Positions 5,175 through 23,464 of a stretch of 64,000 nucleotides of DNA are shown here, piece after piece. Under the pieces are notes generated by a model. The model did not search any database. It saw only the letters and a list, made by a program, of their open reading frames with translations, and was not told where the DNA came from. The DNA comes from Pseudomonas sp. (lineage in GTDB: Bacteria > Pseudomonadota > Gammaproteobacteria > Pseudomonadales > Pseudomonadaceae), in contig JAVXRI010000010.1 in the NCBI GenBank assembly GCA_036643775.1, forward strand, positions 4,752 through 68,751, in the 5' to 3' direction. A program made the position numbers and the translations under genes. Position 1 is the stretch's first letter, and every line of letters starts with the position of its first letter.

Positions 5175-7742
5175 TTATAACAGAGTCTTCAGTGTATAGA
5201 GCATTTCGATAGCTTGACGCGGCGTCATGTTGTCCAGGTCGAGCTTCCCGAGCTTCTCGATGGCCGGGTGTGGCAGGCTGGCAAACAGGTCGCTCTGGTG
5301 CGGAACATCGGCTGCACCCTTGGGCACTACAGGCATTTCATGTGGCAGGCTGGCGGTTTCCAGCCGGCCCAGGTGCTCGCGCGCACGCTGGATCACCGGC
5401 GTCGGTACGCCCGCCAGCTGGGCCACGGCCAGGCCATAGCTCTGGCTGGCAGGCCCCGGCAGCACGTGGTGGAGGAAAACGATGCGCTCGTTGTGCTCGG
5501 TGGCGTTCAGGTGCACGTTGGCTACCAATGGCTCGCTTTCCGGCAGCACGGTCAGTTCGAAGTAGTGGGTGGCGAACAGCGTGTAGGCACGCAGTTGCGC
5601 CAGACGCTCCGCTGCGGCCCAGGCCAGCGACAGGCCGTCGAAGGTGCTGGTACCGCGGCCGACTTCGTCCATCAGCACCAGGCTACGGTCGCTGGCGTTG
5701 TGCAGGATGTTGGCGGTTTCGCTCATTTCGACCATGAAGGTCGAGCGCCCACCGGCGAGGTCGTCGCTGGAGCCGATACGGGTGAAGATCCGATCGACCA
5801 GCGACAGCTCGCAACTCGCTGCGGGTACAAAACTGCCGATATGCGCCATCAGCACAATCAGGGCCGTCTGGCGCATGTAGGTGGATTTACCGCCCATGTT
5901 CGGGCCGGTGATCACCAGCATGCGCGTGCTGTCATCCAGCGCCAGGTCGTTGGCCACGAACGGCGTGGTCAGTACCTGTTCGACCACCGGGTGGCGACCC
6001 TGGGTGATACGCATGCACGGCTCGTCGACGAAGGACGGGCAGTTCAGGTCCAGGTTCAGCGCGCGCTCGGCGAGGTTGCTCAACACATCCAGCTCGGCCA
6101 GGGCCGCGGAGGTGTCCTGCAGGGGCGCCAGATGACCGATCAGGGTTTCCAGCAGCGCGTCGTAGAGCATCTTCTCGCGGGCAAGGGCGCGGCTCTTGGC
6201 CGACAGGGCCTTGTCTTCGAAGACTTTCAGTTCCGGGGTGATGAAGCGCTCGGCGCCCTTGAGCGTCTGCCGGCGGATGTAGTCGGCTGGCGCCTGCTCG
6301 GCCTGCTTGCTCGGCAGCTCGATGAAGTAGCCATGCACACGGTTGTAGCCGACCTTGAGGTTGGCCAGGCCGGTGCGGGCTTTTTCCCGGGCTTCGAGGT
6401 CAATAAGGAACTGGCCGGCGTTCTCGCTCATGGACAGCAATTCGTCCAGTTCGCTGTCGTAGCCGGCTTTCAGCACACCGCCGTCACGGATGACCGCGGG
6501 CGGGTTGTCGATGATGGCTTTTTCCAGCAGGTCGGCCAGTTCCGGGTAGGTCCCGGTGATGGCCGCCAGGCGCGCCAGGTGTGGCGCTTCAAGCTCTGCC
6601 ATGGCGTTCTGCAGTTCAGGCAGGGCGCCGAGGGCGTCGCGCAGGCGCGCCAGGTCTCGTGGGCGGGCGTTGCGCAGGCCGATACGGGCGAGAATGCGTT
6701 CGAGGTCGCCGATTTCCTTGAGCTGCGGCTGCAGTTTCTCAAAGCGGTAGCTGTCGAGCAGGCAGCGAATCGAACCCTGACGTGCTTGCAGGACTTTCAG
6801 GTCGCGCAGCGGGCGGTTCAGCCAGCGGGTCAGCAGACGGCTGCCCATGGCGGTCTGGCAACGGTCGATGACCGACTGCAGAGTGTTGTCGCGACCGCCC
6901 GCCAGGTTCACATCCAGCTCGAGGTTGCGGCGGCTTGCGCCATCGAGCACCACGGTGTCGTCCAGGCGTTCATGCTTGAGGCTGCGCAGATGGGGCAGGG
7001 CGGTACGCTGGGTTTCCTTGGCATAGCCCAGCAGGCAGCCGGCGGCGCCGATCGCCAGGGTCAGCTTCTCGCAGCCAAAGCCCTTGAGGTCCTGGGTTGC
7101 GAACTGCTGGCAGAGGCTCTTGCGTGCCGAATCGCGGTCGAAATCCCAGGGTGCACGGCGGCGGGCGCCGCGGCGTTTCTCCGCAGGCAAGCCTTGTGGC
7201 CAGTCATCGGGGATCAACAGCTCGACCGGGTTGATGCGTTCAAGCTCGGCCAGCAGGTTCTCCCAGCCCTTGATCTCGAGCACGGTGAAGTTGCCGCTGG
7301 TGATATCCAGCACGGCCAGGCCGAACAGGCGCTCGTCACCGAGCACGGCGGCGATCAGGTTGTCGCGGCGTTCATCCAGCAACGCCTCGTCACTGACTGT
7401 GCCGGGGGTAATGATGCGCACCACCTGGCGTTCTACCGGGCCCTTGCTGGTGGCCGGGTCGCCGATCTGCTCGCAGATCACCACCGACTCGCCGAGCTTC
7501 ACCAGCTTGGCCAGGTAGCCCTCGGCCGCGTGGAAAGGGATACCACACATGGGAATTGACTGGCCCGCCGATTGCCCGCGGGCAGTCAGGGTGATATCCA
7601 GGAGTTTTGCGGCCTTCTTCGCGTCTTCATAGAAGATTTCGTAGAAGTCGCCCATGCGGTAGAACATCAGTTGATCTGGGTGCTGGTTTTTCAGCTTCCA
7701 GTACTGTTGCATCATCGGGGTGTGTGCGGAGAGATCGCTCAT
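5175..7742 (-). CDS. mutS: DNA mismatch repair protein MutS
   Basis: [19 protein letters not shown], Walker [25 protein letters not shown]; start [11 protein letters not shown] at 7742 (the ORF-track extension to 8159 overlaps the next gene). Confidence 0.98.
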
Positions 7743-7910
7743 TACAGAAACTTGGCTCGCAGTGTCGTTTAGACCAAAGGCAAGCGGGCAATGGTACAGG
7801 GATTTTGCGCGCGATGCCGAGGCCAACAGCCACGGCGCGACCATTTGTCCATGCATTTGCGTGCATATCGGCAATTGCTTTTTGCATAAGCAGGTTGCAT
7901 TATGCGGATT

Positions 7911-8645
7911 ATGCAAAAACGCAACGTAGCATCCGTCTTGAGAGCACTGCTCGACCGTCACGGTATCTCCCCCACGGAGTTGCACCGGCGTACCGGCGTG
8001 CCGCAATCCACCCTGTCGCGCATTCTCAGCGAGAAGATCGTCGATCCTTCTGACAAACATGTGTCGAAGATCGCCGAGTATTTCGGCGTGAGCACCGATC
8101 AATTGCGTGGCCGCGTCGAACTCGGTGAAAGCCGCGAAGCCGCGCCCGGGCGCAGTCACGCCGAGTTGCGCGATATCAGCCTGTGGGATGACGACACCCC
8201 TGTCGAGGATGACGAGGTATCCATTCCGTTTCTTCGTGAGGTCGAGTTGGCAGCAGGATCAGGACGATTCGTCATCGAGGAAAGCGAGAAGGCCAGCCTG
8301 CGCTTCGGCAAGCGCAGCCTGCGCCACAACGGCGTGCAGTTCGACCAGGCCAAGTGCGTCACGGTGCGCGGCAACAGTATGTTGCCGGTGTTGCGCGATG
8401 GCGCCACGGTAGGGGTCAACGCTGGCAAGAGTGGCATCGGCGATATCGTCGACGGTGACCTGTACGCCATCAACCATAACGGCCAGCTGCGGGTGAAGCA
8501 GCTCTATCGTCTGCCTACCGGTATTCGTCTGCGCAGTTTCAACCGTGATGAGCATCCGGATGAAGACTACAGCTTCCAGCAGATGCAGGAGGAGCAGATC
8601 AGCATCCTCGGCCACGTCTTCTGGTGGGGCATGTACGCCCGCTGA
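7911..8645 (+). CDS. prtR: PrtR-like repressor (Cro/CI HTH + S24 autopeptidase)
   Basis: HTH ([18 protein letters not shown]), Ala-Gly cleavage region (ELAAGSG), catalytic Ser (VRGNSM) and Lys (RVKQL); start MQKRNV at 7911. Confidence 0.9.
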
Positions 8646-8663
8646 TCCACACTCAGTCATCAG

Positions 8664-8689
8664 AAAACCCGCTTCGGCGGGTTTTTTTT
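8664..8689 (+). terminator. Intrinsic terminator after the repressor
   Basis: AAAACCCGC-ttcg-GCGGGTTTT plus T-run. Confidence 0.9.
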
Positions 8690-8777
8690 CGCCTCCAGGA
8701 AATTGTTGCAGGCCGCATAGGATAAGGACTACATGCATATGCGCATTTTCTCGTGCATAAATATTTCCACAAATGCA

Positions 8778-8806
8778 TTGACTGCATATGCATCAATGCA
8801 TAATCT
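8778..8806 (+). promoter_or_regulatory. Candidate sigma70 promoter of the tailocin structural/lysis operon
   Basis: TTGACT-17 bp-TAATCT (alternative CATAAT at 15 bp spacing), embedded in a long palindrome. Confidence 0.65.
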
Positions 8807-9013
8807 TTGTCTCAAGCCGGTCATCACCGGTAGCGACAAAGGCAGCGATGAACAGGCCTGAACTGTTCAGAGGGTTGGCAACTGGCCCGGGTGTGCAGCG
8901 TAAAGCACCACAAGCAGTTATCCGGCGGGCAGGTGGCCGCGGTCGGAGGAACAATTTGAAGCGGAGTCGTCCAGCGCACCAGTCGTGGCAGGCGATTCGA
9001 CAACGCATTACTG

Positions 9014-9040
9014 AAAAGCCTGGAAACGCCGGGCTTTTTG
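9014..9040 (+). terminator. Intrinsic terminator in the tailocin leader, upstream of the holin
   Basis: AAAAGCCTGG-aaacg-CCGGGCTTTTT; flanks GCATT/AATGC can extend the stem. Confidence 0.75.
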
Positions 9041-9114
9041 GAATGCCGAGTGGTCGGTTTTAAACACATGCCGCAGGCAAGGTGCCGTGCGGAACAATAA
9101 AAGGAGACAGGACA

Positions 9115-9468
9115 GTGACAAGCGAGCAACAGACGTTACTGGAAATGCCGATCTGGCTGGTGATCGTCCTGGCCTTGCTGGGCGGTCTCTCTGGCGAGAT
9201 GTGGCGTGCGGACAAGGCCGGTGCCCGAGGCTGGGCGCTGTTTCGGCGCCTGCTTTTGCGTTCGGGAGCCTGCATGGTCTGCGGCGTATCCACGGTGATG
9301 CTGCTGTATGCCAGCGGCATGTCGATCTGGACCGCCAGTGCCTTTGGCTGCCTGACGGCGATGGCCGGTGCCGATGTGGCTATCGGGCTTTATGAGCGGT
9401 GGGCCGCACGGCGCTTGGGGGTCGAAACACAGGTCTCGGAGTTTCAACGCCAGGACAACAAGGAGTGA
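9115..9468 (+). CDS. Phage/pyocin-type holin
   Basis: 117 aa with hydrophobic helices (PIWLVIVLALLGGLSGE...AMAGADVAIGLY) and charged C-terminus; AAGGAG RBS, GTG start; first gene of the operon as in R-pyocin clusters. Confidence 0.85.
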   Translation: MTSEQQTLLEMPIWLVIVLALLGGLSGEMWRADKAGARGWALFRRLLLRSGACMVCGVSTVMLLYASGMSIWTASAFGCLTAMAGADVAIGLYERWAARRLGVETQVSEFQRQDNKE

Positions 9469-9522
9469 GCAGATGAAGTGTTAGGATGCTGGATGTCAAA
9501 CACTCTCAGCCAAAGGAATGGC

Positions 9523-10068
9523 ATGTCGTCCGTAATCACTCAAATCAAAGCCCTGCCACCAAAGTCCCAAGTCAAACTCTGTTTGATCCTAGCGGTTTTC
9601 TCCTTGTTGATTGGCGCTTTGTTCCTGCTTGAATGGAGGGATTATCAAGAGCCGAACCCTGAGCGAATCGTGCAGCTTGAAGGCAGGCTGACCAGCGATG
9701 CCCAGGTGTGGAAGCAAGACCGCAGGATTGTCGACTTCGGTGTGGCGCCGCACGGCATGTATGAAGACCGGCAGCCAGTGTATGCCTACAAGGATGTTTA
9801 CCAGAGCACAGGATTGCGCAGGGGGGCAACGGTTGCACTCGAGGTCGAGCACACGGCAGAGGGCGCTCTGGTGCGTAAGCTGAGCACACATGAAGGTCGC
9901 GTGTTGTTCGATGCCAACATGGAGCGCTACATCGCGTCCACCGGCAACGATTCAATAGTGCGCACGTCAGTCCTCACTGTGTTTCTGGTCACGCTGTGCC
10001 TGGGACATGCCTTTTTGACCTGGAGGCGCTACCTCAAAGCACCGGCAGACGTTAATTCAGCGACGTAG
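9523..10068 (+). CDS. Hypothetical 2-TM inner-membrane protein (tailocin cargo)
   Basis: 181 aa, AAGGAA RBS; hydrophobic segments near both termini flanking a ~120-aa hydrophilic domain; not part of the standard R-tail gene set. Confidence 0.7.
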   Translation: MSSVITQIKALPPKSQVKLCLILAVFSLLIGALFLLEWRDYQEPNPERIVQLEGRLTSDAQVWKQDRRIVDFGVAPHGMYEDRQPVYAYKDVYQSTGLRRGATVALEVEHTAEGALVRKLSTHEGRVLFDANMERYIASTGNDSIVRTSVLTVFLVTLCLGHAFLTWRRYLKAPADVNSAT

Positions 10069-22981: not shown

Positions 22982-23464
22982 ATGGACCCGATCACTGCGC
23001 TTTCCGCCCGGCTGGGTGAACACCTGCGTCGCTTCAAGGCTCAGGTGACTACCGCCGAGTCCTGCACCGGCGGTGGCATTGCCGAGGCCATCACGCGGAT
23101 TCCGGGCAGTTCGGCCTGGTTCGAGGCCGGCTATGTCACCTATTCCAATACGCAGAAGACCCGCCAGCTGGGCGTCCCCGAAACCTTGTTCGCCCAGGTC
23201 GGAGCGGTCAGCCAGGACGTGGTCGAGGCCATGGTCCGCGGCGCCCAGGCTACCAGTGGTGCGCGGTTCGCCGTAGCGGTCAGTGGCGTGGCCGGGCCGG
23301 ACGGTGGATCACCGGCAAAACCGGTGGGCACCGTGTGGCTGGCCTGGGCCGATGGCAGCCATGTCAGCAGCGAGCGCCGGCACTTCGACGGCGACCGCGA
23401 CGAGGTACGCCGACAAACGGTAATCGCCGCGCTAGAGGGCTTGTTACAGCTTGGTGCAGAGTAA
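22982..23464 (+). CDS. cinA: CinA-family protein (NMN amidohydrolase PncC domain)
   Basis: TAESCTGG, GSSAWF, SGVAGPDGG, KPVGTV; upstream of recA. Confidence 0.95.
   Translation: MDPITALSARLGEHLRRFKAQVTTAESCTGGGIAEAITRIPGSSAWFEAGYVTYSNTQKTRQLGVPETLFAQVGAVSQDVVEAMVRGAQATSGARFAVAVSGVAGPDGGSPAKPVGTVWLAWADGSHVSSERRHFDGDRDEVRRQTVIAALEGLLQLGAE

What the first reader, a model, noticed from the sequence alone, without database searches (positions are those of the whole stretch)
8734..8806. 29-bp nested palindrome over the tail-operon promoter defines a candidate PrtR operator (TGCATWWGCA)
Seen: ATGCATTGA (8773-8781)-C-TGCATATGCA (8783-8792)-TCAATGCAT (8793-8801) is a near-perfect inverted repeat covering TTGACT-17-TAATCT. 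A second TGCATATGCG is at 8734. The same motif occurs upstream of the repressor, and TGCAT clusters of this density were not noticed elsewhere in the window. Inference: the repressor directly silences the structural operon, unlike P. aeruginosa, where PrtR represses the activator gene prtN.
Basis: partly seen in the sequence, partly recalled or inferred. Interest (0 to 1): 0.65.

Follow-up and report, generated by a model that had tools for sequence, protein, structure and literature searches.

The report
Tailocin promoter with PrtR repressor operator
The palindrome is real and marks the repressor-binding site on the promoter of a Pseudomonas phage-tail weapon (tailocin), but direct repression by PrtR at this promoter was published in 2025, and the conserved binding unit is a 16-base dyad, not the 10-base motif proposed.

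Summary
The sequence is as described. ATGCATTGA-C-TGCATATGCA-TCAATGCAT (8773-8801) covers TTGACT-17-TAATCT, between the repressor gene prtR/ptbA (7911-8645) and the holin gene, in a 15-kb tailocin cluster flanked by mutS and cinA.

It is not chance. This is the only place in the 6.05-Mb genome with three or more ATGCAT within 60 bp.

About 80 orthologous loci show what is under selection: the -35 TTGACT, a -10 of form TAnnnT, and a 16-bp dyad, TATGCAT-NN-ATGCATA (8787-8802), with a free 2-bp centre. A relaxed form of this dyad is in 72 of 77 loci.

The dyad is unique in this genome. It occurs about once per genome in 149 of 251 genomes of the genus.

Other elements share the same downstream leader RNA but have different repressors, and they carry different dyads. 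The dyad therefore follows the repressor.

The 10-mer upstream of prtR lies in a non-conserved spacer.

Direct PrtR1 binding to this promoter, without PrtN, was shown by ChIP-seq in P. protegens CHA0 (PMC12066065). This is a known kind of element with a refined operator definition. Modest interest.

The parts
5175..7751 (-). mutS, left flank of the tailocin island
   Evidence: Pfam MutS domains I-V, E as low as 1e-84
7875..7903 (+). Inferred prtR promoter: -35 TTGCTT (7875-7880), 17-nt spacer, -10 CATTAT (7898-7903). It would place +1 at or near the A of ATG 7911, giving a leaderless mRNA.
   Evidence: Only these hexamers and the first codons are conserved across 80 loci. The spacer that holds TGCATAAGCA (7883-7892) is not conserved.
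7911..8645 (+). prtR/ptbA-type repressor with an N-terminal Cro/C1 HTH and a C-terminal S24 autopeptidase (the ORF may start at 7902). It has an Ala-Gly (LAAGSG) motif, a Ser in GNSM and a Lys in RVKQ.
   Evidence: Pfam HTH_3 1e-10 and Peptidase_S24 1e-18. Orthologues are 87-100% identical in 80 Pseudomonas loci. Identity to the P. aeruginosa-type PrtR is about 42%.
8664..8690 (+). Intrinsic terminator of prtR (AAAACCCGC-TTCG-GCGGGTTTTTTTT)
   Evidence: Perfect 9-bp inverted repeat I15 followed by a T-run. Conserved in the orthologous loci.
8732..8747 (.). Weak auxiliary dyad O3, CATGCAT-AT-GCGCATT.
   Evidence: 5.2 bits with the O1 matrix. A site of at least 5 bits sits at the same offset (-46/-45) in 33/77 loci, against a background of 5e-5 per position.
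8755..8764 (.). Conserved solitary half-site, TGCATAAATA
   Evidence: Information content about 1.0-1.7 bits per position across the loci
8764..8779 (.). Position of O2. Only its right half (AATGCATT) survives in this window. In the fluorescens, corrugata and gingeri groups it is a full dyad, AATGCAT-TT-GTGCATT, which includes the published 'operator-like' ATAAATGCATTTAC.
   Evidence: 4.1 bits here; at least 5 bits at offset -14 in 26/77 loci. The published 14-mer abuts the -35 in L065, L069 and L080.
8778..8783 (+). -35 hexamer TTGACT of the tail/lysis operon promoter
   Evidence: Invariant in 60 representatives below 90% identity. A TTGAC -35 is also kept in six of the seven elements with other operators (L084 has TTGCAA).
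8787..8802 (.). O1, the main operator: the 16-bp dyad TATGCAT-CA-ATGCATA. It covers the promoter spacer and the first two bases of the -10 (about -27 to -12).
   Evidence: Both 7-bp arms are invariant or nearly so, and the centre 8794/8795 is free at 0.08 and 0.44 bits. Found in 72/77 loci as TATGCRT-NN-RTGCATA. It scores 30.4 bits against a next-best 13.3 bits in the genome. Present in 149/251 genomes of the genus, against 2 hits for the reversed control.
8801..8806 (+). -10 hexamer TAATCT (conserved as TAnnnT)
   Evidence: T8801, A8802 and T8806 are invariant and the middle three bases are free
8812..9046 (+). Conserved structured leader RNA of about 235 nt: a 5' hairpin (8817-8832), a core (8838-8965), and a hairpin plus U-run at 9014-9043 just before the holin gene
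   Evidence: Conserved across Pseudomonas groups and across elements with different repressors. Three helices show compensatory changes. No Rfam family matches. An RNA contig starts at 8817, and none of four RNA runs has anything at 8600-8816.
9115..9468 (+). Holin gene, first gene of the operon (GTG 9115 behind AGGAG 9102-9106; the ORF is open from 9082)
   Evidence: Pfam Phage_holin_3_5, 2e-54
22982..23464 (+). cinA, right flank of the island
   Evidence: PF02464 match at G000:C10:27748-28200, which is window 22997-23449

Best explanation
Positions 8732-8806 form the control region of the tailocin lysis/structural operon. It is a sigma-70 promoter (TTGACT, 17 nt, TAATCT; +1 near 8814) overlaid with binding sites for the adjacent LexA/CI-like repressor PrtR (PtbA subfamily).

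The main operator, O1, is the 16-bp dyad TATGCAT-NN-ATGCATA at 8787-8802. A repressor dimer bound there covers the spacer and the start of the -10 and keeps RNA polymerase off the promoter. Three further elements probably add weak, lineage-variable cooperative binding: an invariant ATGCA half-site against the -35 (the remnant of a second dyad, O2, centred 23 bp upstream of O1), a weak dyad O3 at 8732-8747, and a solitary half-site at 8755-8764.

DNA damage activates RecA, PrtR cleaves itself at its Ala-Gly site, the operator empties, and the operon is transcribed directly without a PrtN-type activator. Transcription then has to pass a conserved structured leader that ends in a terminator, so loss of PrtR is probably necessary but not sufficient for full expression.

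Shown here: the sequence, its conservation pattern, its uniqueness, and its co-variation with the repressor type. Shown by others in an orthologue: PrtR1 binding and repression. Inferred: which bases contact the protein, the number of dimers, cooperativity, the transcription start, and the role of the leader.
For: - Anatomy is exact.
- Context is mutS | prtR (HTH + S24) | terminator | promoter | leader | holin, baseplate genes ... | cinA.
- Conservation footprint in 60 representatives below 90% identity: GCATTGA 8775-8781, TATGC 8787-8791, GCATA 8798-8802 and T8806 are invariant, and the dyad centre is free. This is the signature of a dimeric HTH operator, not of promoter needs alone.
- O1 is present in 72/77 anchored loci and also in L013, L044 and L052.
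- In this genome O1 scores 30.4 bits and the next-best site 13.3 bits. The promoter is the only ATGCAT cluster in 6.05 Mb.
- Across the genus the dyad is in 149/251 genomes, about once per genome, against 2 hits for the reversed control. It lies 37-200 nt from the leader-RNA match in all ten cases I cross-checked.
- Co-variation: the same leader RNA follows other S24/HTH repressors with different recognition helices, behind promoters that in six of seven cases keep a TTGAC -35 but carry different repeats. Examples are TTACAAC/GTTGTAA, TTCAG/CTGAA (also in this genome, contig C59), ATAAGC-NN-GCTTAT x2 and TTAACCGCCGGT/ACCGGCGGTTAA.
- An orphan copy of the ATGCAT-type promoter plus leader, with no repressor gene beside it, heads a second contractile-tail cluster next to ychF in genomes that also have prtR at mutS. 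This fits a trans-acting repressor.
- The P. aeruginosa-type locus has a different shared 19-mer before prtR and prtN.
- The only PrtN-family gene in this genome is on a 1.7-kb contig beside an integrase gene.
- No LexA box lies near the promoter.
- An RNA contig begins at 8817 and nothing lies upstream of it in four RNA runs.
- Literature: ChIP-seq places PrtR1 on the tailocin promoter of CHA0, deleting it raises basal expression, and prtN is absent (PMC12066065; PMC4684702).
Against: - No binding or mutational data exist for this strain or for the bases I propose. ChIP-seq resolution in CHA0 cannot separate O1, O2 and O3.
- In CHA0 the promoter reporter is still induced about 1000-fold by mitomycin C without PrtR1, so PrtR is not the only switch.
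- In P. fluorescens SF4c the orthologue was reported as a positive regulator (cited in PMC12066065).
- The auxiliary sites are weak, and 27/77 loci have neither O2 nor O3 at 5 bits or more.
- Near-invariant T8783, G8784 and A8786 and the ATGCA at 8773-8777 are not explained by O1 plus the hexamers alone.
- The promoter scanner did not call this promoter, because the -10 matches only 3 of 6 consensus positions.
- The transcription start rests on one low-depth contig end.
Confidence: 0.82

Rival explanations
1. The recognition unit is the 10-bp palindrome TGCATWWGCA inside a 29-bp nested palindrome, and a copy upstream of prtR gives autoregulation.
For: The strings exist in this window. TGCAT-rich sequence also lies upstream of prtR, at 7851-7900.
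Against: - The 10-mer is in only 43/77 loci and both outer arms in 17/77, against 72/77 for the 16-bp dyad.
- Base 8785 inside the 10-mer is the least conserved core position (C 37, T 17, G 6).
- Loci L032, L052 and L070 lack the 10-mer but keep the dyad.
- Half-sites 5 bp apart are too close for a dimer of HTH domains (general knowledge of CI, 434 and LexA operators).
- The 7883-7892 copy lies in a non-conserved spacer, and no O1-like site is conserved at the prtR promoter.
- prtR1 expression in uninduced CHA0 is the same with and without PrtR1.
Confidence: 0.08
2. The conserved palindromes bind a different factor. One candidate is a Q- or AlpA-like antiterminator that loads onto RNA polymerase at the promoter to read through the leader terminator. 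Another is the H-NS-like proteins MvaT/MvaV nucleating on AT-rich DNA.
For: - A terminator stands between the promoter and the holin gene.
- Induction survives loss of PrtR1 in CHA0.
- The region is AT-rich in a genome of about 61% G+C.
- Lambda's Q-binding element also lies between the -35 and -10 (general knowledge).
Against: - No Q-, N-, AlpA- or PrtN-like gene lies between the promoter and the terminator or elsewhere in the cluster.
- The palindromes change with the neighbouring repressor while the leader and terminator stay the same.
- ChIP-seq puts PrtR1 on this promoter, and the authors find MvaT/MvaV act indirectly.
- A precise dyad with a free centre is not what H-NS-type binding conserves.
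Confidence: 0.07
3. The conservation reflects promoter function only (-35, spacer, -10, UP-like AT tract), and the palindromic look is an accident of ATGCAT being its own complement.
For: The -35 and -10 sit inside the palindrome. The outer arms of the 29-mer are indeed partly an accident: the left arm includes TTGA of the -35 and the right arm uses the free centre.
Against: - Sigma-70 spacers are not normally conserved base for base, yet here 12 spacer positions are invariant or nearly so and are arranged symmetrically.
- Other promoters that drive the same leader mostly keep a TTGAC -35 but have wholly different spacers.
- The dyad is essentially unique per genome.
Confidence: 0.03

Closest known systems
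PrtR1-controlled R-tailocin promoter of Pseudomonas protegens CHA0 (Heiman et al. 2025, PMC12066065)
   Same: Same gene order (mutS, prtR, long leader, hol ... cinA-side), a repressor of the same subfamily, no prtN, and direct binding of the repressor to the cluster promoter. The operator region lies about 300-400 bp upstream of hol.
   Different: That work gives a ChIP-seq peak and points to the 14-mer ATAAATGCATTTAC. Here the conserved core is a different, adjacent 16-bp dyad over the -10. The 14-mer position (O2) is degenerate in this window, and the exact 14-mer is present in only 3 of 77 loci.
Operator-like sequence ATAAATGCATTTAC of P. fluorescens SF4c (Fernandez et al. 2020, known to me only as cited in PMC12066065)
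   Same: It contains the same ATGCAT half-site and lies directly against the -35 in fluorescens-group loci (L065, L069, L080). It corresponds to the left 14 nt of my O2.
   Different: It is not conserved in the putida and donghuensis-type loci, including this window. In SF4c PrtR was interpreted as an activator.
P. aeruginosa PrtR-PrtN-P box pyocin circuit (Matsui 1993; summarised in PMC4684702 and PMC12066065)
   Same: An S24/HTH repressor that is RecA-cleavable, SOS-type induction of a phage-tail bacteriocin, and a holin-first lysis/tail operon.
   Different: The repressors are about 42% identical. In P. aeruginosa the repressor acts on prtN and PrtN activates at P boxes. Its promoters share ACAACCwTwGCTATATTTA and carry no ATGCAT dyads. 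The chromosomal site also differs (trpE-trpG against mutS-cinA).
Lambda CI with OR1-OR2-OR3, and the tandem overlapping LexA boxes of colicin promoters (textbook knowledge)
   Same: A dimeric HTH repressor with an S24 autocleavage domain, dyad operators of 14-18 bp overlapping the -35 and -10, neighbouring sites about 23 bp apart, and immunity-type specificity that differs between related elements.
   Different: No divergent cro-type partner promoter is present here. The auxiliary sites are weak and variable, and cooperativity is untested.

Membership tests
LexA/CI-type (S24 + HTH) repressor-operator switch | Repressor with an N-terminal HTH and a C-terminal S24 autopeptidase (Ala-Gly site, Ser-Lys dyad) | tested here: met
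   Pfam HTH_3 at residues 13-68 and Peptidase_S24 at 115-239 of the 247-aa ORF. LAAGSG, GNSM and RVKQ are readable in the translation.
LexA/CI-type (S24 + HTH) repressor-operator switch | Dyad-symmetric operator of about 14-18 bp overlapping the core promoter | tested here: met
   The 16-bp dyad at 8787-8802 has 7-bp conserved arms and a free centre, and overlaps the -10.
LexA/CI-type (S24 + HTH) repressor-operator switch | Operator sequence is specific to the repressor (immunity specificity) | tested here: met
   Different repressor HTHs are paired with different promoter repeats in front of the same leader RNA. The P. aeruginosa type has another motif.
LexA/CI-type (S24 + HTH) repressor-operator switch | Physical binding of the repressor to the operator, and RecA-stimulated cleavage | not testable with these tools
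   Only indirect support: ChIP-seq of the orthologue PrtR1 in CHA0.
PtbA/PrtR1-type direct control of mutS-cinA tailocins (environmental Pseudomonas) | Cluster lies between mutS and cinA, with prtR on the same strand as the tail genes | tested here: met
   mutS 5175-7751 (-), prtR 7911-8645 (+), cinA 22982-23464 (+)
PtbA/PrtR1-type direct control of mutS-cinA tailocins (environmental Pseudomonas) | Repressor belongs to the PtbA subfamily (over 80% identity within it, under 40-45% to P. aeruginosa PrtR) | tested here: met
   87-100% identity to 80 Pseudomonas loci. The distribution is bimodal, at least 87% or at most 59%, with about 42% to the aeruginosa-type genus.
PtbA/PrtR1-type direct control of mutS-cinA tailocins (environmental Pseudomonas) | No prtN in the cluster | tested here: met
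   The single PF11112 match in the genome is on the 1.7-kb contig C222 beside an integrase gene, not in the window.
P. aeruginosa PrtR-PrtN-P box circuit | prtN adjacent to prtR and repressed by it | tested here: not met
   No PrtN-family ORF lies next to prtR. Compare the aeruginosa-type locus L082, where prtN follows prtR.
P. aeruginosa PrtR-PrtN-P box circuit | Shared PrtR operator type at the prtR and prtN promoters (ACAACC..GCTATATTTA by my reading of L082) | tested here: not met
   Nothing like it appears at 7800-8810, which carries ATGCAT-type sites.
P. aeruginosa PrtR-PrtN-P box circuit | P boxes upstream of the structural genes | not tested
   I had no P box consensus in the held papers to scan with. 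No direct-repeat array other than the ATGCAT sites was seen.

The most novel reading that the evidence does not exclude
The promoter may be a two-stage gate. PrtR at O1 (with lineage-specific helper sites spaced as in lambda's OR) controls initiation. The conserved structured leader RNA with its terminator would form a second, PrtR-independent checkpoint, an RNA-based put-like or factor-dependent antitermination step. Repressor-operator cassettes of different immunity types have been swapped in front of this leader in both tailocins and prophages. This would explain the roughly 1000-fold mitomycin induction that survives deletion of prtR1 in CHA0.
Probability: 0.3. Interest if true: 0.65.

Novelty: new member of a known kind. 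Interest (0 to 1): 0.3.

Why it matters
It gives a base-level, testable definition of the PrtR/PtbA operator for the large group of plant- and soil-associated Pseudomonas that make tailocins. Published work so far offers only a ChIP-seq peak and a 14-mer that is not conserved outside one subgroup.

It predicts a very small regulon. This genome has one site. Some relatives have a second tailocin cluster next to ychF. This explains why locus-specific repressors do not cross-talk.

It gives a compact damage-inducible promoter/operator cassette for engineering tailocin production.

It also shows where PrtR control stops and the separate question of the leader RNA begins.

Tried and rejected
- Rfam scan of 7600-9600 at E <= 1: nothing for the promoter or leader.
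- The consensus promoter scanner did not call the promoter, because the -10 matches 3 of 6 positions. The promoter assignment therefore rests on conservation and on one RNA contig end.
- PDB sequence search with PrtR: no hit at E <= 0.001, so no structural template for half-site spacing.
- NCBIfam: only sub-threshold hits.
- O1 matrix scanned over the prtR promoter of all loci: no consistent site, so I dropped an autoregulatory operator of this type.
- I considered a second dyad, ATGCA-N5-TGCAT (8773-8787). I rejected it as canonical because the C of its right core is variable, whereas the core G and C of O1 are invariant.
- I tested whether O2 and O3 compensate for each other across loci: no clear pattern.
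- LexA box search near the promoter: none.
- The papers on P. aeruginosa PrtR binding (PMC3993409, PMC193209) are not held. I read the aeruginosa-type motif from a genome locus instead.
- Extra dyad copies in other genomes (L102-L105) are heterogeneous and were not pursued further.

Full report
**Observation.** Every string and coordinate in the finding is correct. ATGCATTGA is at 8773-8781, C at 8782, TGCATATGCA at 8783-8792 and TCAATGCAT at 8793-8801. TTGACT is at 8778-8783, followed by a 17-nt spacer and TAATCT at 8801-8806. A second TGCATATGCG is at 8734-8743. The repeat finder reports the same arms.

The degenerate 10-mer is not remarkable by itself: with one mismatch it gives 23 hits against 14.5 +/- 4.6 expected. 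The clustering is remarkable. Five of the six ATGCAT hexamers in the window flank prtR. The whole 6.05-Mb genome holds 526 ATGCAT, and this promoter is the only place with three or more within 60 bp.

**Context.** The order of features is as follows:
- mutS (5175-7751, minus strand).
- A repressor with a Cro/C1 HTH and an S24 autopeptidase domain (7902/7911-8645).
- Its terminator (8664-8690).
- The palindrome region.
- About 300 nt without a gene.
- A holin gene (GTG 9115), then baseplate genes.
- cinA at 22982-23464.

This is the roughly 15-kb mutS-cinA R-tailocin island of non-aeruginosa pseudomonads. Its repressor has been called PtbA or PrtR1 (PMC4684702; PMC12066065).

**What is conserved.** I fetched 80 loci encoding the repressor at 87-100% identity, from the putida, fluorescens, corrugata, gingeri and other groups. 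Seventy-six of these, together with the window's own copy (77 sequences in all, here called 77 loci), could be anchored on GCATTGAC. After reduction to 60 representatives below 90% identity, the pattern is sharp:
- GCATTGA (8775-8781), TATGC (8787-8791), GCATA (8798-8802) and T8806 are invariant.
- Positions 8794/8795 are free (0.08 and 0.44 bits).
- The middle of the -10 is free.

This reads as a -35 TTGACT, a -10 of form TAnnnT, and between them a 16-bp dyad, TATGCAT-NN-ATGCATA (8787-8802, here called O1). A promoter spacer has no reason to be conserved this way, but the operator of a dimeric HTH protein does.

Counting motifs in the 77 loci:

| Motif | Loci |
|---|---|
| Both outer 9-bp arms | 17 |
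| TATGCRT-NN-RTGCATA | 72 |
| Looser form of the dyad | 75 |
| Published ATAAATGCATTTAC | 3 |

Three of the four loci that could not be anchored also carry the dyad, further downstream or behind a diverged -35. The 29-bp nested palindrome is therefore partly an accident of this window. Its right arm borrows the free centre of O1, and its left arm is largely the -35.

**Auxiliary sites.** I scanned the region with a matrix built from O1. The background rate is 5e-5 per position.
- A site of at least 5 bits sits at offset -46/-45 in 33/77 loci.
- A site sits at offset -14 in 26/77 loci. It is a full dyad in the fluorescens, corrugata and gingeri groups and contains the published 14-mer. In this window only its right half, AATGCATT, remains.
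- 27/77 loci have neither site, so these are lineage-variable helpers.

O2 and O1 are centred 23 bp apart, the spacing of neighbouring lambda operators (my knowledge). The invariant ATGCA at 8773-8777, and near-invariant T8783, G8784 and A8786, are not fully explained.

**Specificity.** In this genome O1 scores 30.4 bits and the next-best site 13.3 bits. In 251 genomes of the genus the dyad occurs in 149, almost always once, while the reversed control pattern hits twice in all. In the ten cases I cross-checked it lies 37-200 nt from the leader-RNA match. This matches the CHA0 ChIP-seq result that PrtR1 binds only the tailocin promoter.

**Whose site is it.** The decisive comparison came from the sequence downstream. 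The leader that follows the promoter is a conserved, structured RNA, described below. The same RNA occurs in 141/251 genomes, often in two or three copies, including a second copy in this genome on contig C59. In those other copies it sits behind other S24/HTH repressors with different recognition helices. Their promoters, in six of seven cases, keep a TTGAC -35 but carry quite different repeats over the -35 and -10:
- TTACAAC/GTTGTAA.
- TTCAG/CTGAA (this genome's second copy).
- Two copies of ATAAGC-NN-GCTTAT.
- TTAACCGCCGGT/ACCGGCGGTTAA.

PtbA-type repressors always go with ATGCAT-type sites (the 77 loci plus L099 and L100). So the repeats follow the repressor and not the leader. This argues against a leader-linked factor such as a Q-like antiterminator.

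In some genomes that also have prtR at mutS, an ATGCAT-type promoter plus leader with no repressor gene beside it stands next to ychF. It heads a second contractile-tail cluster with sheath-like DUF2586, tube, tape measure and baseplate J genes. That is what a trans-acting repressor predicts.

**Comparison with P. aeruginosa.** An aeruginosa-type locus (repressor about 42% identical) has prtN after prtR. It shares a 19-mer, ACAACCwTwGCTATATTTA, in front of both genes and has no ATGCAT motif. This genome has one PrtN-family ORF, but it lies on a 1.7-kb contig beside an integrase gene and not in the cluster. No LexA box lies near the promoter.

**The repressor's own promoter.** Across 80 loci only a -35 (TTGCAT; TTGCTT here, 7875-7880), a -10 (CAyTAT, 7898-7903) and the first codons are conserved. 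The spacer that holds TGCATAAGCA (7883-7892) is not conserved, and the O1 matrix finds no consistent site there. The published reporter data show no PrtR1 effect on prtR1 expression in uninduced cells. I therefore do not support an autoregulatory copy of the motif.

**Mechanism.** The most likely mechanism is that a PrtR dimer on O1 (about -27 to -12) blocks RNA polymerase. Weak neighbouring sites may add cooperativity. RecA-stimulated self-cleavage (Ala-Gly in LAAGSG, Ser in GNSM, Lys in RVKQ; read from the translation) frees the promoter, and the operon is transcribed directly.

The transcription start is inferred near 8814. One RNA contig begins at 8817, and none of four RNA runs covers 8600-8816.

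Two published results limit the claim. About 1000-fold mitomycin induction remains in CHA0 without PrtR1. A positive role for PrtR has been reported in SF4c.

**Seen in passing: the leader.** Positions 8812-9046 are far better conserved than a spacer should be. They contain a 5' hairpin, a core with compensatory changes in three helices, and a hairpin plus U-run at 9014-9043 just before the holin gene. No Rfam family matches. Seven loci lack the leader, and there the promoter sits directly before hol. In one transcriptome of a relative, a 58-nt piece of the core has a contig depth of about 2900 against about 320 for the holin region. This hints that the leader accumulates. It is the subject of a separate first-stage note, and I did not work out what it does.

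**Novelty.** Direct repression of the tail operon by PrtR without PrtN is already published for CHA0, and an operator-like 14-mer had been noted. It also adds evidence that the operator is swapped together with the repressor in front of a shared leader, and an estimate of regulon size. This is a new member of a known kind of element, of modest interest.

Noticed in passing
window 8812-9046: A conserved structured leader RNA of about 235 nt (5' hairpin, core with compensatory changes in three helices, terminator-like hairpin plus U-run at 9014-9043) lies between the tail promoter and the holin gene. No Rfam family matches. It is found in 141/251 genomes of the genus, often in several copies, behind repressor-operator modules of different specificity. 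Seven orthologous loci lack it.
   Followed up: partly
own genome contig C59:7765-7880 (locus L085): A second copy of the leader-RNA core (86% identical) lies in the same genome, downstream of a different 223-aa HTH/S24-like repressor. Its promoter is TTGACT-17-TTAAAT and carries TTCAG/CTGAA repeats in place of ATGCAT.
   Followed up: partly
L096-L098 and L101 (G361:C55, G276:C2, G390:C1 around 939,900): An orphan ATGCAT-type promoter plus leader sits directly after ychF with no repressor gene beside it. It heads a second contractile-tail cluster (DUF2586 sheath-like, HP1 Orf24 tube, tape measure, baseplate J). It is probably controlled in trans by the PrtR encoded at mutS.
   Followed up: partly
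window 7875-7925: The conserved -35 (TTGCAT-type), 17-nt spacer and -10 (CAyTAT) put the likely start of the prtR transcript at the A of ATG 7911, which has no Shine-Dalgarno. This suggests a leaderless mRNA, as for lambda cI. The upstream ATG 7902 lies inside the -10.
   Followed up: partly
L087, L091, L093 (other leader-bearing elements): LexA-box-like CTG-N10-CAG sequences (for example CTGTATATCCGTACAG) stand before a small divergent gene just upstream of the leader promoter. Some sister elements may therefore be wired to LexA through a small regulator and not through a cleavable repressor.
   Followed up: no
L102 and L103 (G095:C1:235900, G113:C1:356129; also G297:C9 and G309:C161): A recurrent extra copy of the dyad (TATGCATTTGTGCATA) lies about 110-130 nt upstream of a Dam-like DNA methylase gene (N-terminus ...PWMGGKRRL...). 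In L102 it lies beside a LexA-box-like sequence and a divergent large gene. It is a possible additional PrtR target in those genomes.
   Followed up: partly
RNA run X7 laid on window 8835-8892: In a small transcriptome of a relative, a 58-nt piece of the leader core has a contig depth of about 2900, against about 320 for the holin region. This hints that the leader accumulates as a stable or terminated RNA.
   Followed up: no
own genome contig C222 (L081:365-589, minus strand): The only PrtN-family (PF11112) ORF in the genome lies on a 1.7-kb contig next to the 3' end of a tyrosine-recombinase gene, that is, in a mobile element and not with the tailocin.
   Followed up: partly
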